Of a stretch of DNA of 64,000 nt, positions 5,778 through 47,770 are shown one piece after another. A program made the translations under genes and the position numbers. Source of the stretch: a virus; the IMG/VR virus record IMGVR_UViG_3300047510_001668, positions 64,001-128,000 of that record, one strand, 5' to 3'. Below the pieces are notes generated by a model. The model saw only the letters and a program-made list of their open reading frames with translations. It searched no databases and had not been told where the DNA came from. Every line of letters begins with the position of its first letter. Position 1 is the first letter of the stretch.

Positions 5778-5785
5778 TATTTATA
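5778..5785 (-). promoter_or_regulatory. late promoter TATAAATA for gp48-gp53 block
   Basis: Exact consensus; a divergent CATAAATA variant at 5748-5755 faces gp4. Confidence 0.75.
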
Positions 5786-6243
5786 TGGCCTACGTGAAAG
5801 ACACCTACAAAGGAAGATTCCTCCCCACGAAACCTCAGAAATACATCGGGGACACCTCCAACATCATCTACCGAAGCAGTTATGAATTGAAATTCATGAA
5901 ATGGTGTGACATGAATGGCTCTGTTAGACGTTGGGCCAGTGAGGAAATTGTCATCCCCTATCTCAGTCCTGCCGACGGTGAAATGCACCGATATTTCGTG
6001 GACTTTTTCATAGAAGTGGTCACCAAAGATGGTGGCATAAAGAAATATCTGGTGGAGGTGAAGCCCTATAGATACACTCAACCACCTGTGATACCTAAAA
6101 GAAAAACCCAACGCTTCATCTCGGAAGTGAAGCAATGGGGTGTGAACAATGCCAAGTGGGAGGCTGCAAAACGCTTTGCCAAGCAGAACAACATGGAGTT
6201 CATGTTGATTACCGAGAAGGATTTACAAACTTCGTATAAATAG
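5785..6243 (+). CDS. gp4: head completion nuclease gp4 (TnsA-like)
   Basis: YKGRF.P..PQKY.GD..NIIYRSSYE, WASEE, HRYFVDF, EVKP; start moved to MAYVKD. Confidence 0.9.
   Translation: MAYVKDTYKGRFLPTKPQKYIGDTSNIIYRSSYELKFMKWCDMNGSVRRWASEEIVIPYLSPADGEMHRYFVDFFIEVVTKDGGIKKYLVEVKPYRYTQPPVIPKRKTQRFISEVKQWGVNNAKWEAAKRFAKQNNMEFMLITEKDLQTSYK
6235..6242 (+). promoter_or_regulatory. late promoter TATAAATA
   Basis: Exact consensus overlapping gp4 stop, upstream of gp2. Confidence 0.8.
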
Positions 6244-11889: not shown

Positions 11890-12374
11890 AATGGCTCATA
11901 AAAAATGTGATTGCCTATTTGTGTGATGGGCTTGGCGAATGTCCAACCAGGCTTCACAGATGTATTATGAAAATACATCGCATTCTTTAGTATAACAACA
12001 TGTGTGTTGTTTGTCAAGACCTCTTTGGCAATTTCATAGGACACTTGATACACGGTGCTGTCGAACGGAGCTTTTGGACCACAGGTCCAGGAGAATTGAC
12101 ATCCTCGGCTGTTCCGTTGATACACCACACCACAAATGGTTTTCGGGAACTGTTTATGTCGGACACGATTCATGGTCACTGTGGCAACTGCCAACTTGCC
12201 ACGGTAGGATTCCATGGGTGCCTCATAGAAAATGTTCTTGGCTAAGCATGTCAATTGCTTCTCATCCAGAACAACTTTTGAAATGGGTTTACGTTCCATC
12301 ACAGGAACTGGATGATAATCTCCCACCAACAACGCCAGCAACATCAACACAATCAAAAATGCATTTCTGAACAT
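11886..12374 (-). CDS. cell wall hydrolase (SleB/Hydrolase_2 family) with N-terminal signal
   Basis: CLAKNIFYEA..E..G..AVA.V.MNRV, FPKTICGVVYQ, QFSW, IGNHIFY. Confidence 0.9.
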   Translation of the reverse strand: MFRNAFLIVLMLLALLVGDYHPVPVMERKPISKVVLDEKQLTCLAKNIFYEAPMESYRGKLAVATVTMNRVRHKQFPKTICGVVYQRNSRGCQFSWTCGPKAPFDSTVYQVSYEIAKEVLTNNTHVVILKNAMYFHNTSVKPGWTFAKPITQIGNHIFYEPL

Positions 12375-12404
12375 AGAACCTCCCATGTGAAATGTACATA
12401 ACAA

Positions 12405-12660
12405 GGTGGGGGTTTTCTGTTCCCAGGGAACCCCCGAACCCGGCATGCTACTTAATTAAGCAGCTAATGCAAGAGGCGTATTATATGTGCCTGTTAATGT
12501 TTTTGCTCTGCTTACGGCAGTCGCCTATCGGGTAGCTCTCTCATCTAGTCCTTAACCTGTCGAAACCAGTCATCCCCGAAATGTTTGCTACTGAATGGAG
12601 ATGGAGGGAATCGAACCCTCGTCCAAGCTATGTTTCAATTTGAGCTGTTCTACTACCATC
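12405..12660 (-). ncRNA. ssrA: tmRNA, permuted two-piece gene
   Basis: T-arm/acceptor GGACGAGGGTTCGATTCCCTCCATCTCCA (ends 12596) lies upstream of GGGGATGACTGGTTTCGAC (starts 12577); G3-U70; tag GTYNTPLALAA* at 12491-12456; outer ends approximate. Confidence 0.9.
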
Positions 12661-12668
12661 CTACAGAA

Positions 12669-13397
12669 CTATTTATGAAACTCTTTGACAGTGATTTTGT
12701 TATCAGCATCAATTAATATAGCTGTCAGATTTTCCACCCAATCACCAGAATTTAAATAGTGAACACCTGCAATTTGTCTATCTTCTGGTTTGTGGATGTG
12801 ACCACAGATAACACCAGAGCAATTGTTTTGTCGTGCGAGATTTGCGGCACCTACTTCAAAGTCTGTGATGTAGTTGACTGCTGCTTTCACCCCATTCTTA
12901 ATATCTTTAGAAATGGAATAGTAAGGAAGTCCTCTCCATGCTCTCCACTTATTATACCAGGTATTCAATCGAAGTGCCAATTCATATCCACTTGCTCCAA
13001 TTTGTGCAATCCACTTCCATTTAGCAACAAATACGTCCAAGATGTCTCCGTGGAAGATGAAATACTTTTTGCCTTCACCGAGGTCAAGGATGTAATTTTC
13101 TTCCACTTGTAACTTGCCGAGATGCATATGCATGAATTCGTGTAAGAACTCATCGTGATTCCCACGTATCCACACCACAGGTATCTTTCTGGAAATGTCT
13201 AATACTTTAGATATCACCTTGGTATGCTTTGCTCTCCAACGAACGCCACGGGACAATGCCCATCCATCCACGAAGTCACCGTTGATAATCAAGATGTCGG
13301 TGTGATGTTCTTCCAGAAACTTCAAGAACTCCACTGCTTTGCAATCTTCTGTTCCTAAATGGACATCTGATACGATAATGGCTTTGTAGTGCTTCAT
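12669..13397 (-). CDS. LpxH-like (UDP-2,3-diacylglucosamine hydrolase family) metallophosphoesterase
   Basis: SDVHLG, NGDFVD, GNHD, FHGD, GHIH, NSGDW. Confidence 0.88.
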   Translation of the reverse strand: MKHYKAIIVSDVHLGTEDCKAVEFLKFLEEHHTDILIINGDFVDGWALSRGVRWRAKHTKVISKVLDISRKIPVVWIRGNHDEFLHEFMHMHLGKLQVEENYILDLGEGKKYFIFHGDILDVFVAKWKWIAQIGASGYELALRLNTWYNKWRAWRGLPYYSISKDIKNGVKAAVNYITDFEVGAANLARQNNCSGVICGHIHKPEDRQIAGVHYLNSGDWVENLTAILIDADNKITVKEFHK

Positions 13398-13398
13398 A

Positions 13399-14106
13399 TT
13401 AATTCCAGTAATTCACTTTCGCCTTCTCAAAGTGCTTAAGGTTGTTTCTATTCAAGAAGTTGACTATCATGTACCAAATCATTCCAAGATAACCTAGTTT
13501 CTTGAACCTGCGTTCATCTTGTCCAAAGTAATGGTCCACAATCATAAACTTCTTGGCATCATACTGTTTACTCAATATGTAATCTTCGGATGTATCATAT
13601 TTGTTTGGAAATCCACCAAGCTCATCAAACTTGTCTTTTCTGGTCAAAAAGAATGCTCCGATGGCAAATGGAGTTTTCTTGGTCATGATTTTGTTGATGA
13701 GATTGAAACACCAGAAGAAGAACGAGGCACGAAGATGTTCACCGTAATTCTTAATGTTGGCTGTTATCAAGTCCAAATTATATACCACCATCTTGTTTAC
13801 CGCATCATAGATGGTGAAGGGATGAAACAACCTCACATCAGCATCCAAAAACAGAATGTATGGAGTAGTTACCAACTTGGCACCGTTGTTTCTTCCTACA
13901 GATACCGGTCCTCCTGTAATCACTTCAATATTCAACACATCATCATACAATTTCACCACCGAGATAGTATTATCGGTACTATAGGCATCTGCGACAATGA
14001 TACGAGTGTTTCCGATACCCACTTGTTGTGACAAAGAATCAAGTAGATGTCCAATATATTTTTCTTCATTCTTGCAGGGGATGATGATGGTGACTAAATC
14101 TTTCAT
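13399..14106 (-). CDS. glycosyltransferase family 2
   Basis: IIIPCKNEE, DAYSTDNT, GRNNGA, FLDADV, SED. Confidence 0.92.
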   Translation of the reverse strand: MKDLVTIIIPCKNEEKYIGHLLDSLSQQVGIGNTRIIVADAYSTDNTISVVKLYDDVLNIEVITGGPVSVGRNNGAKLVTTPYILFLDADVRLFHPFTIYDAVNKMVVYNLDLITANIKNYGEHLRASFFFWCFNLINKIMTKKTPFAIGAFFLTRKDKFDELGGFPNKYDTSEDYILSKQYDAKKFMIVDHYFGQDERRFKKLGYLGMIWYMIVNFLNRNNLKHFEKAKVNYWN

Positions 14107-24004: not shown

Positions 24005-24173
24005 GCAGCACCACCTCATCTCGGTGTATTCTGCCAGCAGTCCCCATGACCATCCTGGCATCATGCAATCCAAAACGTCGAGCCTCAGCCACCGTCTTGG
24101 CATACACTATCGTGGAATATTTATAGTGGGCAGTGAAGCAGGTGTAAACATAGCAGTTTCGTTGATTACGCAT
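23937..24173 (-). CDS. hypothetical protein
   Basis: ORF in operon orientation, start uncertain. Confidence 0.4.
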   Translation of the reverse strand: MRNQRNCYVYTCFTAHYKYSTIVYAKTVAEARRFGLHDARMVMGTAGRIHRDEVVLHVPELQHTRDKLPGSGRISSES

Positions 24174-42669: not shown

Positions 42670-42677
42670 TATTTATA
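42670..42677 (-). promoter_or_regulatory. late promoter TATAAATA heading the secreted-protein operon
   Basis: Exact consensus. Confidence 0.8.
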
Positions 42678-43264: not shown

Positions 43265-43280
43265 ACATCCTCCTGAGTGA

Positions 43281-43352
43281 CGGGCCCACTAGGACTCGAA
43301 CCTAGAACGACGGTTTTGGAGACCGCTGTGTTACCAATTACACCATGAACCC
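43281..43352 (-). tRNA. tRNA-Trp(CCA)
   Basis: Cloverleaf, loop CT-CCA-AA. Confidence 0.92.
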
Positions 43353-43353
43353 A

Positions 43354-43428
43354 AGGGCGAGGCGGGATTCGAACCCGCGGTTTTAGAGTTTTGCAGACTC
43401 TTGCATTGGGCCACTCTGCCACCCGCCC
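43354..43428 (-). tRNA. tRNA-Cys(GCA)
   Basis: Cloverleaf, U73. Confidence 0.92.
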
Positions 43429-43434
43429 GTATGC

Positions 43435-43587
43435 TTATCTATATTGCTCTGTGGCCATGGCTTTCTGAATGTCTCCTCCTTGTAGAGGATCCTCAGATGA
43501 TGAGCGGGTCAAGGTGAAGGCAAAAATTAAAAAAATCACCAAAGCAATAAATGAAATGATGTTAGGTAAGTTATCTTTGTTTTCCAT
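43435..43587 (-). CDS. small single-TM protein
   Basis: MENKDNLPNIISFIALV...; AGGAGG RBS. Confidence 0.6.
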   Translation of the reverse strand: MENKDNLPNIISFIALVIFLIFAFTLTRSSSEDPLQGGDIQKAMATEQYR

Positions 43588-43604
43588 ACATCCTCCTGTA
43601 GAAG

Positions 43605-43677
43605 TCGAGGAGACAGGACTCGAACCTGCGACATCCTGCTCCCAAAGCAGGCACTCTACCAACTGAGCTACTCCTCG
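43605..43677 (-). tRNA. tRNA-Pro(TGG)
   Basis: Cloverleaf. Confidence 0.92.
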
Positions 43678-43685
43678 ATGATTGT

Positions 43686-43713
43686 AATATACAACATTTC
43701 TTTCATTTGTCAA
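43686..43713 (-). promoter_or_regulatory. early promoter inside tRNA cluster
   Basis: TTGACA-16-TATATT. Confidence 0.6.
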
Positions 43714-43716
43714 GCA

Positions 43717-43790
43717 CGCGCCTGAAAGGATTCGAACCTATAACCTTCTGATCCGTAGTCAGATGCTCTATCCAGTTGAGCTACAAGCGC
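43717..43790 (-). tRNA. tRNA-Arg(ACG)
   Basis: Cloverleaf. Confidence 0.92.
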
Positions 43791-43794
43791 CTGA

Positions 43795-43867
<73 letters not shown>

Positions 43868-43869
43868 AG

Positions 43870-43944
43870 GGTGACTGACGGGATTCGAACCCGCGACCCT
43901 CGGAACCACAATCCGATGCTCTAACCAGCTGAGCTACAATCACC
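43870..43944 (-). tRNA. tRNA-His(GTG)
   Basis: Cloverleaf with encoded G-1:C73. Confidence 0.93.
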
Positions 43945-43945
43945 A

Positions 43946-44022
43946 TGGAGTCCTTGGCGAGACTTGAACTCACAACCCGCTCCTTAGGACGGAGCCGCTC
44001 TATCCAGTTGAGCTACAAGGAC
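43946..44022 (-). tRNA. tRNA-Arg(CCT)
   Basis: Cloverleaf, CCA encoded. Confidence 0.9.
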
Positions 44023-44023
44023 A

Positions 44024-44113
44024 CGGACAGAGAGGGATTCGAACCCTCGGTACAGCTTTTGACCGTACGGCGGTTTAGCAAACCGCTGCCTTAAGCCTCT
44101 CGGCCATCTGTCC
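44024..44113 (-). tRNA. tRNA-Ser(GCT)
   Basis: Long variable arm. Confidence 0.92.
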
Positions 44114-44115
44114 AA

Positions 44116-44189
44116 CGCTCCTGGAGGGACTCGAACCCCCAACCCACTGAGTAGAAATCAGTTGCGCTATCCAATTACGCCACAAGAGC
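44116..44189 (-). tRNA. tRNA-Arg(TCT)
   Basis: Cloverleaf. Confidence 0.9.
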
Positions 44190-44192
44190 AAG

Positions 44193-44266
44193 TACACCAG
44201 GCTAGAGTTGAACTAGCGACCCCCGGTGTATCAGACCGGTGCTCTAACCAGCTGAGCTACTGGTGT
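44193..44266 (-). tRNA. tRNA-Ile(GAT)
   Basis: Cloverleaf. Confidence 0.9.
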
Positions 44267-44269
44267 GTA

Positions 44270-44353
44270 TGGGAGTGGAAGGATTCGAACCTACTAGGCC
44301 TATTGGCGACAGATTTACAGTCTGTTGTAGTCCTCCAGCTCTACAGCACTCCC
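44270..44353 (-). tRNA. tRNA-Tyr(GTA)
   Basis: Long variable arm, atypical D arm. Confidence 0.88.
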
Positions 44354-44533
44354 CTACTTCAGTTCCTCTACTTCTATCATGATGTTGCCACGTGCACCTA
44401 CAGAAGGCCAAAAAGCAATATCAAATTTATTGAAATCCAATTTTCCTAATGCTTCTTCCACACTAGTGACGGCTTCTTTTCTTGTGGTGTACTTACCTGG
44501 GACTGGAATGCCGTTATACTTTACAATGAACAT
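44354..44533 (-). CDS. hypothetical protein between tRNAs
   Basis: MFIVKYNGIP...; AAGGAG RBS. Confidence 0.6.
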   Translation of the reverse strand: MFIVKYNGIPVPGKYTTRKEAVTSVEEALGKLDFNKFDIAFWPSVGARGNIMIEVEELK

Positions 44534-44548
44534 GATGTCTCCTTGTGA

Positions 44549-44622
44549 TAGCTGAGGCCGGACTTGAACCGGCGACCCCGGCATTATGAGTGCCGTGCTC
44601 TAACCAGCTGAGCTACCCAGCC
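44549..44622 (-). tRNA. tRNA-Met(CAT), elongator type
   Basis: Paired 1-72, no initiator GGG/CCC anticodon stem; Ile2 not excluded. Confidence 0.82.
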
Positions 44623-44624
44623 AA

Positions 44625-44698
44625 CGGAATCGACGGGACTCGAACCCGCAACCCCCGCAGTGACAGTGCGGTGCGCTAACCGATTGCGCCACGACTCC
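44625..44698 (-). tRNA. tRNA-Asp(GTC)
   Basis: Cloverleaf. Confidence 0.92.
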
Positions 44699-44701
44699 AA
44701 G

Positions 44702-44773
44702 CTCCTCGGGCTGGACTCGAACCAGCAACCCTTCGATTAACAGTCGAATGCTCCACCGTTGAGCTACCGAGGA
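44702..44773 (-). tRNA. tRNA-Asn(GTT)
   Basis: Cloverleaf. Confidence 0.92.
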
Positions 44774-44774
44774 A

Positions 44775-44850
44775 TGGTGCCAAGAGACAGAATCGAACTG
44801 CCGACACGTGGTTCTTCAGACCACTGCTCTACCAACTGAGCTATCTTGGC
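44775..44850 (-). tRNA. tRNA-Phe(GAA)
   Basis: Cloverleaf, CCA encoded. Confidence 0.93.
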
Positions 44851-44856
44851 GTACAG

Positions 44857-44929
44857 AGCGAGCGATGGGGTTCGAACCCACGACATCAACGTTGGCAACG
44901 TTGCGCTCTACCAGCTGAGCTACGCTCGC
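44857..44929 (-). tRNA. tRNA-Gly(GCC)
   Basis: Cloverleaf. Confidence 0.92.
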
Positions 44930-44939
44930 AAACTACAAA

Positions 44940-45011
44940 TGCCCCGACTAGGACTCGAACCTAGAACCTGGTGATTAAGAGTCACATGCTCTACCATTGA
45001 GCTATCGAGGC
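44940..45011 (-). tRNA. tRNA-Lys(CTT)
   Basis: Cloverleaf; first 10 nt overlap HNH gene end. Confidence 0.88.
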
Positions 45012-45391
45012 GTTCTATAAGTTCTAGCAGATTTTCTTTTTCCTGTATTCTTAAAAGTTTTCTTTAGTGAGTGACAATTAGGACAGAGAACTCTTAAATT
45101 TTCACGTAAATTATTATAAGCATCACCATCAATATGGTCAACATCTAATGGTACAGTATTTGTATATGGATTTACATCACCCCAACCACATTCTGAACAT
45201 TGATGTTTTGCTTCTTCTAATAAAAATCTACGCATCCAGACAGGAACAGAAATACCACCTTTTCTTATAAAGTTTTTACCTTCTAACCATGTAGATATTG
45301 AACTCTTGTATTGAAATGCTTGTTGACATTTACCATCACAAAAAGTATTTCTACCTGGTATCTCTTTACTACAGTTTTTACAAGTTTTCAT
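45002..45391 (-). mobile_element. free-standing HNH homing endonuclease gene 1
   Basis: CSECG..LDVDHIDGDAYNNLRENLRVLCPNCH; AT-rich; own late promoter 45409-45416. Confidence 0.88.
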
Positions 45392-45423
45392 ACGACCTCC
45401 TATATATGTATTTATAAGGTCGT
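45392..45423 (-). promoter_or_regulatory. late promoter inside RBS-sequestering hairpin
   Basis: ACGACCT-TATAAATA-CATATATAGG-AGGTCGT-ATG. Confidence 0.8.
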
Positions 45424-45431
45424 GAACTTAG

Positions 45432-45504
45432 AGCTAGCAGTCGGAATCGAACCGACGACATCCTCATTACAAGTGAGGTGCTCTGCCAACTGAGCTATGC
45501 TAGC
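45432..45504 (-). tRNA. tRNA-Thr(TGT)
   Basis: Cloverleaf. Confidence 0.92.
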
Positions 45505-45517
45505 AAACATACAACAG

Positions 45518-45590
45518 AGCGAGCGATGGGACTCGAACCCACAACAACCTGCTTGGAAGGCAGGGACTCTAGCCATTGAGCTACGCTCGC
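45518..45590 (-). tRNA. tRNA-Gly(TCC)
   Basis: Cloverleaf. Confidence 0.92.
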
Positions 45591-45593
45591 AAG

Positions 45594-45667
45594 TCCGCCG
45601 GGAGGGACTTGAACCCCCACATCTTTCGCATATAAGGCGACTGCCTTCACCATTTGGCTACCGGCGG
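45594..45667 (-). tRNA. tRNA-Ile(TAT)
   Basis: Acceptor CCGCCGG/CCGGCGG, A73, loop CT-TAT-AT. Confidence 0.8.
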
Positions 45668-45671
45668 ATGA

Positions 45672-45745
45672 TGCACCCCCTGGGATTCGAACCCAGCCCT
45701 AAAAGATTAAAAGTCTCTTGTGCTAACCGCTGACACTAGGGGTGC
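45672..45745 (-). tRNA. tRNA-Lys(TTT)
   Basis: Cloverleaf. Confidence 0.9.
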
Positions 45746-45753
45746 TTGTGACA

Positions 45754-45836
45754 TGCTCCGGGCGAGACTCGAACTCGCAAGACCTTTCGGTCGGGGGATT
45801 TTAAGTCCCCTGTGTATACCATTTCACCACCAGAGC
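45754..45836 (-). tRNA. tRNA-Leu(TAA)
   Basis: Long variable arm. Confidence 0.92.
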
Positions 45837-45839
45837 TTA

Positions 45840-45922
45840 TGCATTCAGAGGGGGTCGAACCCACACGCCTTGTCGGCGCCAGATCCTAAGTCTGGTGCGT
45901 CTGCCAATTCCGCCATGAATGC
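45840..45922 (-). tRNA. tRNA-Leu(TAG)
   Basis: Long variable arm. Confidence 0.92.
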
Positions 45923-45932
45923 ATTTCAGTTA

Positions 45933-46310
45933 TCAATCAGCAACCTCTTCTATCTCAACAGGTCCGTAAAACACAATTTCACAATCTGAACATTCCCAGC
46001 CTGCCTCTTCCGGATAGAATGTTGCGGATTCTAGAAGTTTCTGTTCCTTCTTGGACAAATCTTCCACACCCACTCTGTCTGTCCAACACCCATCATTTAA
46101 ATTATGATCCATTCTGCTGTATTCATCTGACACCAAAGTGTCACCTTCTGTCCAGCCATTCTCACGTGGGTCTTCCTCCACCCAAACCTCACCCCAACGA
46201 TACCAGGTGTTTTCTTCAAAGTAGATGCGTTTACCATTGCCTAGCACCTTCTCCCAAACGCATTGTTCACACACATCCTTTTTATCAACATTGGAAATTT
46301 TAAATGACAT
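45933..46310 (-). CDS. acidic hypothetical protein
   Basis: GAGG RBS; ORF between tRNAs. Confidence 0.65.
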   Translation of the reverse strand: MSFKISNVDKKDVCEQCVWEKVLGNGKRIYFEENTWYRWGEVWVEEDPRENGWTEGDTLVSDEYSRMDHNLNDGCWTDRVGVEDLSKKEQKLLESATFYPEEAGWECSDCEIVFYGPVEIEEVAD

Positions 46311-46331
46311 AATCACCTCATGATGAAGAAG

Positions 46332-46416
46332 CGGACAGGGAGGGATTCGAACCCCCGGAACCTTTCAGTTCTTCGGTTTTCAAGACCGATGCAATAAACC
46401 GCTCTACCACCTGTCC
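46332..46416 (-). tRNA. tRNA-Ser(TGA)
   Basis: Long variable arm. Confidence 0.92.
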
Positions 46417-46423
46417 AATAACA

Positions 46424-46557
46424 ACCTCAGGCGTCCCTGAGGTGAACACTTGTAGTCCTGCGGCAAAGTACAATAGAAGCTGTCTAGAAGATTTCTATTC
46501 ACATATAGCCTAGCGGAACCTTTCGGTAATAACTATATTTCATATACCTACAAGTAT
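46424..46557 (-). ncRNA. candidate structured RNA A
   Basis: Nested stems, GAAA tetraloop, terminal 8 bp hairpin. Confidence 0.5.
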
Positions 46558-46561
46558 TCTA

Positions 46562-46644
46562 TGCTCCCGGTGAGACTCGAACTCACAAGCCTGTGAAGGC
46601 AGAGGTTTTTGAGACCTCCGTGTATACCATTCCACCACAAGAGC
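46562..46644 (-). tRNA. tRNA-Leu(CAA)
   Basis: Long variable arm. Confidence 0.92.
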
Positions 46645-46703
46645 AGGTGTGATGCCAGTTAACATTATGGATTCTCGCAGACCACTGGCACCACAAGCGA
46701 GAA

Positions 46704-46776
46704 TGGGTAGTGAGGGACTCGAACCCCCGACAGCCTGCGTGTAAAGCAGGTGCTCTACCAGCTGAGCTAACCACCC
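46704..46776 (-). tRNA. tRNA-Val(TAC)
   Basis: Cloverleaf; first 10 nt overlap HNH gene end. Confidence 0.92.
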
Positions 46777-47168
46777 CTTTTATATCTACCTAAGTATCCG
46801 TTTCTTTTAGTATTTTTTGTGTTTCTTGAAACCCAGGTATCTGTTTGTGTGTGACAATTAGGACACAACAATCTTAAATTTTCTATTTTATTGTTATCTG
46901 AATTACCATCAATGTGGTCTAATTGCAGTGTCAATTCTTTCCCATTATGAAATGGCATCTGACCACATATTACACAAACATCACCTAAAGTTTCTTTCAG
47001 ATACTTTTTTAAAGCACCCACATTAGAACAAACCCCTTCTAATATTTTTGGAATTGAAATAGTTTTGTATTTAAATTCTCCTTGGCACTTATTACTGCAA
47101 TACTTGCCTGTTTTTTGTGATGGGAAAAAGTGTATCTCCTTTTCACAATTTAAACATTTACCTACCAT
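46767..47168 (-). mobile_element. free-standing HNH homing endonuclease gene 2
   Basis: CVICG..LQLDHIDGNSDNNKIENLRLLCPNCH; AT-rich; TATAAATA at 47197-47204 in hairpin loop. Confidence 0.88.
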
Positions 47169-47219
47169 CTTTTCTCCTTGTTAGACCTTACAATTTATTT
47201 ATACGGTCTAAGTTTTTCA

Positions 47220-47292
47220 TGGACCTGAACGGGATCGAACCGATGACCTCCTGAATGCAAATCAGGCGCTCTCCCAGCTGAGCTACAGGCCC
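47220..47292 (-). tRNA. tRNA-Ala(TGC)
   Basis: Cloverleaf, G3-U70. Confidence 0.93.
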
Positions 47293-47297
47293 GAGGT

Positions 47298-47388
47298 GAC
47301 GTTGAAGTGGGCGGACTCACCCGCTTTCCTAGTTGAGATAGGCGACCGATTTGCTCAACATTGTCGGCCCTCTAACCACTTGAACGTC
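47298..47388 (-). ncRNA. candidate structured RNA B (4-way junction, kissing loops)
   Basis: 13 bp closing stem, three internal hairpins, GTTGAG/CTCAAC loop complementarity. Confidence 0.6.
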
Positions 47389-47395
47389 TAACTTG

Positions 47396-47578
47396 TTACT
47401 TGGCAGCTTCACCTTCTACTGCTGGCTTTACTTCTGCTGACTTGATTGAATCAGTATCAATCTTGGTTGAGTCAACAACTGCTGCACTGTCAACTGCAAC
47501 TTCACCTTGAACTGCTTCTTCCTTTGCTGCACATGCACCAAGGAACAACACACCGACCAACATGAATAACTTGCTCAT
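47396..47578 (-). CDS. small lipoprotein
   Basis: LGAC lipobox; AAGGAG RBS. Confidence 0.8.
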   Translation of the reverse strand: MSKLFMLVGVLFLGACAAKEEAVQGEVAVDSAAVVDSTKIDTDSIKSAEVKPAVEGEAAK

Positions 47579-47623
47579 ACATTCTCCTTATGAATTGTGG
47601 AATTGCACTGCTATCGCACTGCA

Positions 47624-47694
47624 TTGCCCCACTACGACTCGAACGTAGATTCGCGGATCCAAAGTCCGCTGTCCTGCCATTGGACGATAGGGCA
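47624..47694 (-). tRNA. tRNA-Gln(TTG)
   Basis: Cloverleaf, U1-A72. Confidence 0.92.
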
Positions 47695-47698
47695 ATAG

Positions 47699-47770
47699 TA
47701 CCGCGTATGGGAATCGAACCCATCTTACCAGAGTGAAAGTCTAGCGTCCTAACCGATAGACGAACGCGGC
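47699..47770 (-). tRNA. tRNA-Glu(TTC)
   Basis: Cloverleaf. Confidence 0.92.

What the first reader, a model, noticed from the sequence alone, without database searches (positions are those of the whole stretch)
12405..12660. Phage-encoded circularly permuted (two-piece) tmRNA with an unusual tag
Seen: on the minus strand the T-arm plus acceptor 3' half (CATCTCC-A) comes first, then an 18-nt spacer (12578-12595), then the 5' half GGGGATG; the halves pair with G3-U70. The tag reads GTYNTPLALAA*. CCA is not encoded. Knowledge: permuted tmRNAs are known from alphaproteobacteria, marine cyanobacteria and some betaproteobacteria; tags end in ALAA for ClpXP. Inference: the phage supplies its own ribosome rescue RNA, possibly an independent permutation event.
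Basis: partly seen in the sequence, partly recalled or inferred. Interest (0 to 1): 0.78.

Follow-up and report, generated by a model that had tools for sequence, protein, structure and literature searches.

The report
Two-piece tmRNA in T4-like phage
An uncultured T4-like phage carries a genuine, circularly permuted ribosome-rescue RNA (tmRNA) from a branch so far seen only in viruses; because phage two-piece tmRNAs are already published, it is a well-supported new member of a known kind rather than a new kind.

Summary
On the minus strand, a T-arm and 3' acceptor strand (CATCTCC-A) are followed by an 18-nt spacer (12595-12578), then GGGGATG, a D-loop analogue, PK1, a tag frame GTYNTPLALAA-stop (12491-12456), helix P5 and a 3' pseudoknot. 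ARAGORN and Rfam (RF04321, 112.7 bits) both call a permuted tmRNA.

The window lies in a 178-kb, ~99% complete T4-like virus record with 29 tRNA genes and no SmpB, SspB, CCA-adding enzyme or psbA.

At least 40 IMG/VR contigs carry the same RNA at the same locus (PhoH-orf220-tmRNA-hydrolase-gp32). They show compensatory changes in the helices, an invariant G3-U70 pair, codon-like variation in the tag, and an invariant ATAAATA late-promoter-type box.

Phage two-piece tmRNAs are already published (Buchholz 2022; the tmRNA database 2025). A missing CCA is common. The tag is a clade-wide variant.

An independent permutation is neither shown nor excluded. Covariance-model scores and a shared PK1 string link the clade to beta-type viral tmRNAs, but AU tests cannot reject other placements.

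Verdict: real, very probably functional, modest novelty.

The parts
12670..12677 (-). cATAAATA box, a candidate T4-type late promoter; transcription would start near 12660-12664
   Evidence: ATAAATA is invariant in all 24 aligned relatives whatever the upstream gene. It lies at a fixed 63-66 nt from the acceptor strand in further clade members. The motif occurs 17 times in the window against 5.2 expected, with 0 of 100 shuffles reaching 17. It sits 10-40 nt upstream of ORF starts, including the tail-tube cap gene. No sigma-70-type promoter was found.
12596..12663 (-). Acceptor piece: 5' leader, 3' strands of the P2 helices, T-arm (12620-12604), 3' acceptor strand CATCTCC (12603-12597), discriminator A (12596); CCA not encoded
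   Evidence: Rfam alignment; direct reading; compensatory changes in the T-arm and P2 helices, and G3-U70 in 24 of 24 sequences.
12578..12595 (-). 18-nt intervening spacer, to be excised from the precursor
   Evidence: Direct reading. The spacer varies in length and sequence (5-98 nt) among relatives while the flanking strands stay conserved.
12531..12577 (-). Start of the coding piece: 5' acceptor strand GGGGATG (12577-12571), D-loop analogue ACTGGTTTCGA (12570-12560), 5' strands of the P2 helices (12559-12531)
   Evidence: Rfam alignment; covariation. The D-loop analogue is identical to that of beta and cyano two-piece tmRNAs.
12502..12530 (-). PK1 region, including the clade-invariant string AGGCGACTGCCGTAAGCAGAGCA
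   Evidence: Hairpin in the Rfam model, with one compensatory CG-to-GC pair. The exact string is found in 55 IMG/VR contigs. The second pseudoknot stem was not defined.
12456..12491 (-). Tag reading frame: GGC resume codon through TAA, encoding GTYNTPLALAA*
   Evidence: ARAGORN. UA at positions -5/-4 before the resume codon, as in E. coli tmRNA (direct reading plus my own knowledge). Variation among relatives is synonymous or conservative.
12447..12464 (-). Helix P5 (GCUGCUU/AAGUAGC) enclosing the stop codon
   Evidence: 82% of cells paired, with a compensatory CG/UA pair in 8 and 6 sequences.
12408..12443 (-). 3' H-type pseudoknot: CCGGG pairs with CCUGG, and GGGGGUU with AACCCCC; the loop carries GGGAACAGAA, and the second stem may double as a terminator
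   Evidence: Stem 1 is 96.7% paired and nearly invariant; stem 2 varies with some compensation. The GG(C/G)AACAGAA motif recurs in alpha and beta two-piece tmRNAs. A T-run follows the hairpin in most relatives.

Best explanation
This is a functional two-piece tmRNA gene (ssrA) that has been inherited for a long time within one lineage of uncultured T4-like myophages. The gene is probably transcribed from a T4-type late promoter box as a single precursor. Host tRNA-processing enzymes would cut at the 5' side of G1 (RNase P) and remove the 18-nt spacer from the 3' side of the discriminator. The host CCA-adding enzyme would then complete the acceptor end, as it must for the phage's 29 CCA-less tRNAs. 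The two pieces stay paired through the acceptor stem and the P2 helices. Host AlaRS would charge the RNA through G3-U70 and A73, and host SmpB would deliver it to stalled ribosomes. Translation would resume at GGC and add (A)GTYNTPLALAA, whose LAA end is a ClpXP-type degradation signal. The likely benefit is to keep ribosomes free, and to recycle truncated proteins, late in infection when translation demand peaks and host RNAs decay. What is shown: the sequence anatomy, covariation, codon-level conservation of the tag, synteny, and the absence of phage SmpB and CCA enzyme. What is inferred: promoter use, processing, charging, tagging and the benefit to the phage.
For: ARAGORN and Rfam both call the RNA. 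The structure is supported by covariation: 90.9% of cells paired against 40-63% in slid controls, 14 pairs with double changes, and an invariant G3-U70; P5 is also supported. Tag codons vary synonymously or conservatively. At least 40 IMG/VR contigs carry the same RNA type. Synteny (ligase-PhoH-orf220-tmRNA-hydrolase-orf90-orf193-gp32) holds while gp32 identity falls from 99% to 67%, which indicates long vertical inheritance under selection. The ATAAATA box is invariant and the motif is enriched in the window upstream of late-type genes. The phage has no SmpB, SspB or CCA-adding enzyme, and none of its 29 tRNA genes encodes CCA. Two-piece tmRNA function and phage carriage are published (PMC9004378; PMC11915505).
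Against: There is no expression, processing, charging or tagging data, and the host is unknown. One P2 sub-helix is only 71% paired in my register, and the second stem of PK1 was not defined. Two clade members (L022, L064) have copies truncated inside the tag frame, so the RNA can be lost. The window's own 3' hairpin lacks the clean T-run seen in relatives. The late-promoter reading rests on motif identity and enrichment only.
Confidence: 0.8

Rival explanations
1. This is the first reader's idea: the virus-only clade is a fourth, independent circular permutation of a tmRNA gene that arose in or for this phage lineage, rather than descent from one of the three bacterial two-piece lineages.
For: The clade is strongly monophyletic (100/100; 97/97 with added members), contains only viral contigs, and sits on a long stem. 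No bacterial locus resembles it beyond the tRNA-like domain. Its beta-model score (97.7 bits) is far below that of chromosomal beta tmRNAs (165-296 bits). AU tests reject no placement.
Against: The layout is the same as in known two-piece forms: a short acceptor piece first, then the spacer, PK1, the tag, P5 and a single 3' pseudoknot carrying GG(C/G)AACAGAA. Its beta-model score is well above the cross-lineage level (alpha 40-53 bits, cyano 59 bits). There is a graded series of viral tmRNAs with the identical 23-nt PK1 string, an encoded CCA, AND-type tags and beta scores of 98-130 bits, followed by viral beta-like ones at 130-160 bits. No one-piece relative was found among 55 contigs carrying the PK1 string.
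Confidence: 0.12
2. The RNA is not mainly a rescue factor. Instead it acts as a modulator or decoy that titrates host SmpB or AlaRS, or replaces the host tag, so as to redirect or block host trans-translation, for example against defences that cleave mRNA or tRNA.
For: The phage encodes no SmpB and so must compete for the host's. A TLD-only phage tmRNA (DS6A) has been reported to inhibit host tmRNA (PMC4131195; PMC11915505). The tag differs from the AND-type tags of related viral tmRNAs.
Against: The full tag frame, resume-codon context, P5 with its stop codon, and both pseudoknots are conserved, and the tag shows codon-like substitution patterns. A decoy would not need any of these. The C-terminal LALAA keeps the classical degradation signal.
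Confidence: 0.06
3. The element is a non-functional relic: either a fragment of host ssrA captured at an integration site, or host DNA mis-assembled into the viral contig.
For: tmRNA genes are common integration sites, and prophages can carry fragments of them (PMC9004378; PMC4131195).
Against: Both halves and all domains are present. The same locus is found in dozens of independent viral contigs between phage genes. Covariation and tag conservation are clear. No bacterial genome locus matches it. The record is a lytic-type T4-like genome.
Confidence: 0.02

Closest known systems
Betaproteobacterial two-piece tmRNA (Rfam RF01850; Dechloromonas, Thauera, Azonexus, Gallionellaceae) and beta-like viral tmRNAs in IMG/VR
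   Same: Same gene order and architecture. Canonical T-loop GGTTCGAnTCC and identical D-loop analogue ACTGGTTTCGAC. Similar PK1, and a 3' pseudoknot with the GGCAACAGAA-type loop. It passes the family's gathering score over the full model length. The ML tree joins it weakly to this group (53/75).
   Different: It scores 97.7 bits against 165-296 for chromosomal members. CCA is not encoded. The spacer is short. The tag is GTYNTPLALAA with a Gly resume codon rather than an AND-type tag. It has a late-promoter box, and it is found only in viral contigs.
tmRNA of Stenotrophomonas phages Mendera, Moby, YB07 and Marzo (annotated ssrA)
   Same: This is the best match among 50,697 deposited phage genomes: 80.5% identity over 43% of the RNA, covering the tRNA-like domain through PK1. 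It is permuted (PMC9004378 Table S1) and carried by a large ~160-kb phage.
   Different: There is no similarity in the tag or the 3' part. Related bacterial copies (Stenotrophomonas L173, L176) encode CCA and fall in another part of the tree.
Two-piece tmRNAs of Methylophilales phage Melnitz and Pelagibacter phage HTVC008M
   Same: The carrier phages are the nearest cultured relatives (gp32 55-57% identical). Both have permuted tmRNAs. HTVC008M's tag ANFNEYALAA resembles the clade's basal tag ANFNQAYALAA.
   Different: They are alpha-type: a reduced T-loop (GGGGGCAGTACCC), an encoded CCA, and no significant sequence similarity. Melnitz is reported to have a glutamine riboswitch and an early promoter (PMC9004378); no riboswitch is found here and the promoter box is of the late type.
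Cyanobacterial two-piece tmRNA (RF01851) and cyanophage copies (S-CAM3, S-CBWM1)
   Same: Canonical T-loop and D-loop analogue, CCA usually not encoded, short spacers.
   Different: Only the tRNA-like domain matches the cyano model (50.6 bits, below the cut-off of 70). The phage has no psbA. Sister placement appears in one ML tree only, at 62/37 support.
One-piece phage tmRNAs (mycobacteriophage Bxz1 group, Bacillus phage G)
   Same: A phage-encoded ssrA with no phage SmpB reported; presumed to support translation in large phages rich in tRNA genes (PMC4131195).
   Different: Those have the standard, non-permuted gene order.

Membership tests
tmRNA (any form) | tRNA-Ala-like domain: 7-bp acceptor stem with G3-U70, discriminator A73 and a T-arm | tested here: met
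   7/7 pairing with G3-U70 and A73. All of these are invariant in 24 of 24 relatives, with compensatory changes in the T-arm and acceptor stem.
tmRNA (any form) | Tag reading frame without a start codon, ending in a hydrophobic (A/L/V)AA degradation signal, with the stop codon in helix P5 | tested here: met
   GTYNTPLALAA*. Synonymous or conservative codon variation. P5 covariation.
tmRNA (any form) | Pseudoknot PK1 upstream of the tag and at least one pseudoknot downstream | tested here: inconclusive
   The PK1 hairpin is present with one compensatory pair, but the second stem was not defined. The 3' H-type pseudoknot is well conserved, though its first stem hardly varies.
tmRNA (any form) | Alanylation, SmpB binding and trans-translation activity | not testable with these tools
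   No SmpB gene in the phage, and the host is unknown. This needs biochemistry.
Permuted (two-piece) tmRNA, RF04321 | Acceptor piece encoded upstream of the coding piece, joined by an intervening sequence; score above the gathering cut-off | tested here: met
   The order was read directly. ARAGORN flags it as permuted. RF04321 scores 112.7 bits against a cut-off of 47, over the full model.
Permuted (two-piece) tmRNA, RF04321 | Precursor cleaved into two RNAs held together by base pairing | not testable with these tools
   Needs northern blots, RNA-seq or end mapping.
beta_tmRNA, RF01850 | Score in the range of true members and monophyly with betaproteobacterial two-piece tmRNAs | tested here: inconclusive
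   97.7 bits exceeds the cut-off of 84 and the cross-lineage levels (40-59 bits), but true members score 165-296 bits. The ML grouping has only 53/75 support, and AU tests do not reject alternatives.
alpha_tmRNA, RF01849 | Reduced T-loop (GGGGGCnGTACCC type) and a score in the range of true members | tested here: not met
   The window has the canonical T-loop GGGTTCGATTCCC. Its 63.2 bits equals the cross-hit of a true beta tmRNA (Thauera, 65.4 bits), while true alpha members score 200-317 bits.
cyano_tmRNA, RF01851 | Score above the gathering cut-off over the full model | tested here: not met
   50.6 bits against a cut-off of 70, matching model positions 52-124 only.

The most novel reading that the evidence does not exclude
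The virus-only clade may be a separate, fourth origin of tmRNA gene permutation. More broadly, large phages may be the reservoir and vehicle that spread two-piece tmRNA genes between bacterial phyla. In one ML tree the cyanobacterial lineage sits inside a grade of viral tmRNAs that share the PK1 string, but only with weak support.
Probability: 0.12. Interest if true: 0.7.

Novelty: new member of a known kind. Interest (0 to 1): 0.35.

Why it matters
It adds a well-documented case showing that large T4-like phages with big tRNA sets also carry their own ribosome-rescue RNA. It also defines a coherent phage lineage in which that RNA is a stable, syntenic gene that is probably expressed late and depends fully on host SmpB, AlaRS, RNase P and the CCA-adding enzyme. 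The clade is a natural series of two-piece tmRNAs with variable spacers, CCA present or absent, and varied tags, which makes it useful for studying processing and tag evolution. It may also help predict hosts. It does not change the current picture of tmRNA biology, because phage-borne permuted tmRNAs are already described.

Tried and rejected
1. Glutamine riboswitch as in Melnitz: none found in 12200-12900, even at E up to 10.

2. Sigma-70 promoter: none found.

3. Cyanophage reading: no psbA in the 99% complete genome or in five partial relatives, and the cyano model matches only the tRNA-like domain.

4. Alpha-type origin shared with the nearest cultured phages: Melnitz and HTVC008M tmRNAs have a reduced T-loop and no similarity to this RNA.

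5. The quick ML tree was discarded, because the AU run found a better-scoring constrained tree.

6. Careful trees, with and without intermediates, still left the deep placement unresolved.

7. Search for one-piece relatives through the PK1 string: ARAGORN called 24 of the 30 new contigs permuted and missed 6; of the misses I read only L271 through by eye, and it is of the window's type. No one-piece form turned up.

8. Phage-encoded partners: no SmpB, SspB or CCA-adding enzyme.

9. Sharkady & Williams 2004 (PMC516066), which defines the lineage features, is not held in the library.

10. The host could not be identified.

Full report
**Observation.** The T-arm is at 12620-12604 and the 3' acceptor strand CATCTCC at 12603-12597. 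The discriminator A at 12596 is followed by TTC rather than CCA. An 18-nt spacer occupies 12595-12578, followed by GGGGATG at 12577-12571 and the D-loop analogue ACTGGTTTCGA. The two acceptor strands pair 7/7 with G3-U70. ARAGORN calls a permuted tmRNA at 12365-12685(-) with the tag GTYNTPLALAA*. Rfam 15 gives RF04321 tmRNA_permuted at 112.7 bits (cut-off 47) and RF01850 beta_tmRNA at 97.7 bits (cut-off 84), each over the full model.

**Context.** The window is bases 64001-128000 of a 177,878-bp IMG/VR virus record that CheckV rates 99% complete.
- Its genes are T4-like: gp5 OB domain, tail-tube cap, gp32, PhoH, DNA ligase and RNR.
- It has 29 tRNA genes in one array.
- gp32 is only 55-57% identical to the best cultured matches: Melnitz of OM43, S-CAM8 of Synechococcus, and HTVC008M of SAR11.
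- The genome has no psbA, SmpB, SspB or CCA-adding enzyme.
- None of the 29 tRNA genes encodes a real 3' CCA. The tmRNA's missing CCA therefore matches the phage's own tRNA style and implies use of the host enzyme.

**What is already known.** Buchholz et al. 2022 (PMC9004378) described a two-piece tmRNA in phage Melnitz. They counted 53 unique permuted tmRNAs among 18,146 phage genomes, 50 of them from marine or aquatic phages, including S-CAM3, S-CBWM1, the Caulobacter CcrSC group and Stenotrophomonas phage Mendera. The 2025 tmRNA database paper (PMC11915505) lists 79 unique phage tmRNAs and still speaks of three main bacterial permuted clades. The class is therefore known.

**Relatives.**
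- A pattern for the permuted tRNA-like domain found 60 viral and 120 or more bacterial loci.
- About 33 of the viral loci align with the window's RNA over 270-340 nt at 70-97% identity. No bacterial locus matches beyond the tRNA-like domain.
- A second scan with the clade's invariant 23-nt PK1 string found 55 viral contigs, 30 of them new. ARAGORN of the 30 permuted; L271, one of the six misses, is clearly of the window's type when read by eye, and no one-piece form turned up.
- Among deposited phage genomes the best match covers only 43% of the RNA, in the Mendera group at 80.5% identity (a stricter search found nothing).
- The locus is syntenic throughout the clade: ligase, PhoH, orf220, (GT2 and metallophosphatase in the closest relatives), tmRNA, a variable insert, SleB-like hydrolase, orf90, orf193, gp32. 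Over this set gp32 identity falls from 99% to 67%. This points to old, vertical inheritance within one phage lineage.

**Evidence that the RNA is functional.**
- On a 24-sequence alignment, my structure, taken from the Rfam alignment plus a proposed 3' pseudoknot, has 90.9% standard pairs against 40-63% in slid controls. Fourteen pairs change on both sides, and G3-U70 is present in 24 of 24 sequences.
- Helix P5, which encloses the stop codon, has a compensatory CG/UA pair.
- Tag codons vary synonymously (AAT/AAC, CTT/CTC, TTA/CTC, CCT/CCA, GCT/GCC/GCG) or conservatively (T/A, Y/F).
- The tag is conserved as G(T/A)YN(T/A)PLALAA in the sub-clade. Deeper members carry GTFNSPLALAA...SYALAA and ANFNQAYALAA. 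A Gly resume codon is also the rule in Bacillus subtilis (my own knowledge), so the tag is a variant rather than an anomaly.

**Expression.**
- ATAAATA, the core of the T4 late-promoter consensus TATAAATA (established knowledge), is invariant 13 nt before the conserved GGATGGTAGTAG in all 24 sequences, whatever gene lies upstream.
- It keeps a 63-66 nt distance from the acceptor strand in further clade members. It is absent from the CCA-encoding intermediates.
- The motif occurs 17 times in the window against 5.2 expected, mostly 10-40 nt upstream of ORF starts, including the tail-tube cap gene.
- An earlier scan note also read the copy at 42670 as a late promoter.
- No sigma-70 promoter and no glutamine riboswitch were found, in contrast to Melnitz.
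- Late expression is an inference.

**Which lineage.** Model scores are calibrated as follows.

| Sequence set | beta model (RF01850) | alpha model (RF01849) | cyano model (RF01851) |
|---|---|---|---|
| True beta tmRNAs | 165-296 bits | Thauera 65.4 bits | not run |
| True alpha tmRNAs | 40-53 bits | 200-317 bits | not run |
| True cyano tmRNA (Synechococcus) | 59 bits | not run | not run |
| Window | 97.7 bits | 63.2 bits | 50.6 bits, tRNA-like domain only |
| Window's clade | 89-100 bits | 58-60 bits for L041, L053 and L018, whose best model this is | not run |

- Viral tmRNAs that share the exact PK1 string but have CCA, long spacers and AND-type tags score 98-130 bits on the beta model. 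Other viral beta-like tmRNAs score 130-160 bits. This is a graded series leading to the beta type.
- The alpha hallmark, a reduced T-loop, is absent.
- The trees do not settle the matter. A quick tree proved unreliable.
- Careful trees give four strong groups: alpha, cyano, the window's clade (100/100; 97/97 with new members), and a paraphyletic beta group. The window's clade joins beta only at 53/75, or sits next to cyano at 62/37 once intermediates are added.
- AU tests reject none of the placements, with p from 0.32 to 0.49.
- I conclude that descent from, or common origin with, beta-like viral tmRNAs is the more likely reading, and that an independent permutation is not excluded.

**Mechanism.** The proposed steps are:
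1. A late transcript starts near 12660-12664.
2. Host RNase P cuts 5' of G1.
3. Host 3' processing removes the spacer, and the host enzyme adds CCA.
4. AlaRS charges the RNA through G3-U70 and A73.
5. Host SmpB delivers it to stalled ribosomes.
6. Translation resumes at GGC, adding (A)GTYNTPLALAA.
7. The tagged protein is degraded by a ClpXP-type protease through the LAA end.

The anatomy and conservation are shown; every biochemical step is inferred from established tmRNA biology. The decoy, relic and contamination readings fit the conserved tag frame, pseudoknots and synteny poorly.

**Verdict.** This is a real and very probably functional phage tmRNA, and a new member of a known kind. The added value is the definition of a virus-only, syntenic clade with a late-promoter box, and an honest open question about its origin.

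Noticed in passing
window 43279-47770 (-): An array of 29 tRNA genes. None has an encoded 3' CCA, and the phage has no CCA-adding enzyme, so all of them depend on the host enzyme. ATAAATA boxes at 45409 and 47196 precede small ORFs inside the array.
   Followed up: partly
window, 17 sites (e.g. 5778-5784 -, 6236-6242 +, 24118-24124 -, 42670-42676 -): ATAAATA (10 of the 17 as TATAAATA) is three times over-represented and lies 10-40 nt upstream of ORF starts, as expected for T4-type late promoters.
   Followed up: partly
L022:10808-11111 and L064:3224-3527: Two clade members have a tmRNA that diverges inside the tag frame after ...NAPL. The ALAA-stop, P5 and 3' pseudoknot are not found downstream, so these copies are truncated or replaced. 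In L022, two ORFs (157 and 499 aa) follow.
   Followed up: partly
relatives L060, L048, L023, L018, L041, L016, L065 (between the tmRNA and the SleB-like hydrolase): An insert of 0 to about 3.5 kb lies directly downstream of the tmRNA in many relatives but is absent from the window. Conversely, the GT2 plus metallophosphatase pair upstream (window 12669-14106) is present only in the closest relatives (L060, L040). The tmRNA flanks therefore look like a hotspot for gene gain and loss.
   Followed up: no
L173, L176, L191 (Stenotrophomonas) and L181, L193 (Roseateles): Genomes of genera that I expect to have a one-piece tmRNA (my own knowledge, not checked here) carry an additional permuted tmRNA scoring 110 and 85 bits on the beta model. 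These are probably prophage-borne, since Stenotrophomonas phages of the Mendera group carry such a gene.
   Followed up: partly
L201, L213, L224 (genomes G130, G047, G083, order Burkholderiales): Three loci have a permuted-looking acceptor arrangement (7/7 pairing, G3-U70, D-loop analogue) but only 35-50 bits on the beta model. They form their own long-branched group (100*, branch length 1.34). They may be another divergent permuted type or regex artefacts.
   Followed up: no
L075 (MAG labelled Chitinophaga) and L124 (MAG labelled Sphingobacterium): Their permuted tmRNAs fall inside the picocyanobacterial clade, so the contigs are probably mis-binned cyanobacterial DNA.
   Followed up: no
G000:C1:148654-149028 (-), outside the window: A 197-aa ORF matches the ClpP protease family (32.2 bits, E 8.7e-9). 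It could be a prohead-type protease or an auxiliary ClpP-like enzyme. Any link to tag-dependent degradation is speculation.
   Followed up: no
L260 (Melnitz MZ577097.1, about 46013-46345): Melnitz's alpha-type tmRNA has a spacer of about 150 nt. It is preceded by TTGACA-N17-TATAAAT, a sigma-70-type promoter whose -10 element also reads TATAAATA.
   Followed up: no
alpha (L240, L251, L256), beta (L200) and window 12408-12443: The loop motif GG(C/G)AACAGAA of the 3' pseudoknot recurs in alpha, beta and this viral clade, so it appears to be a conserved element across two-piece tmRNAs.
   Followed up: no
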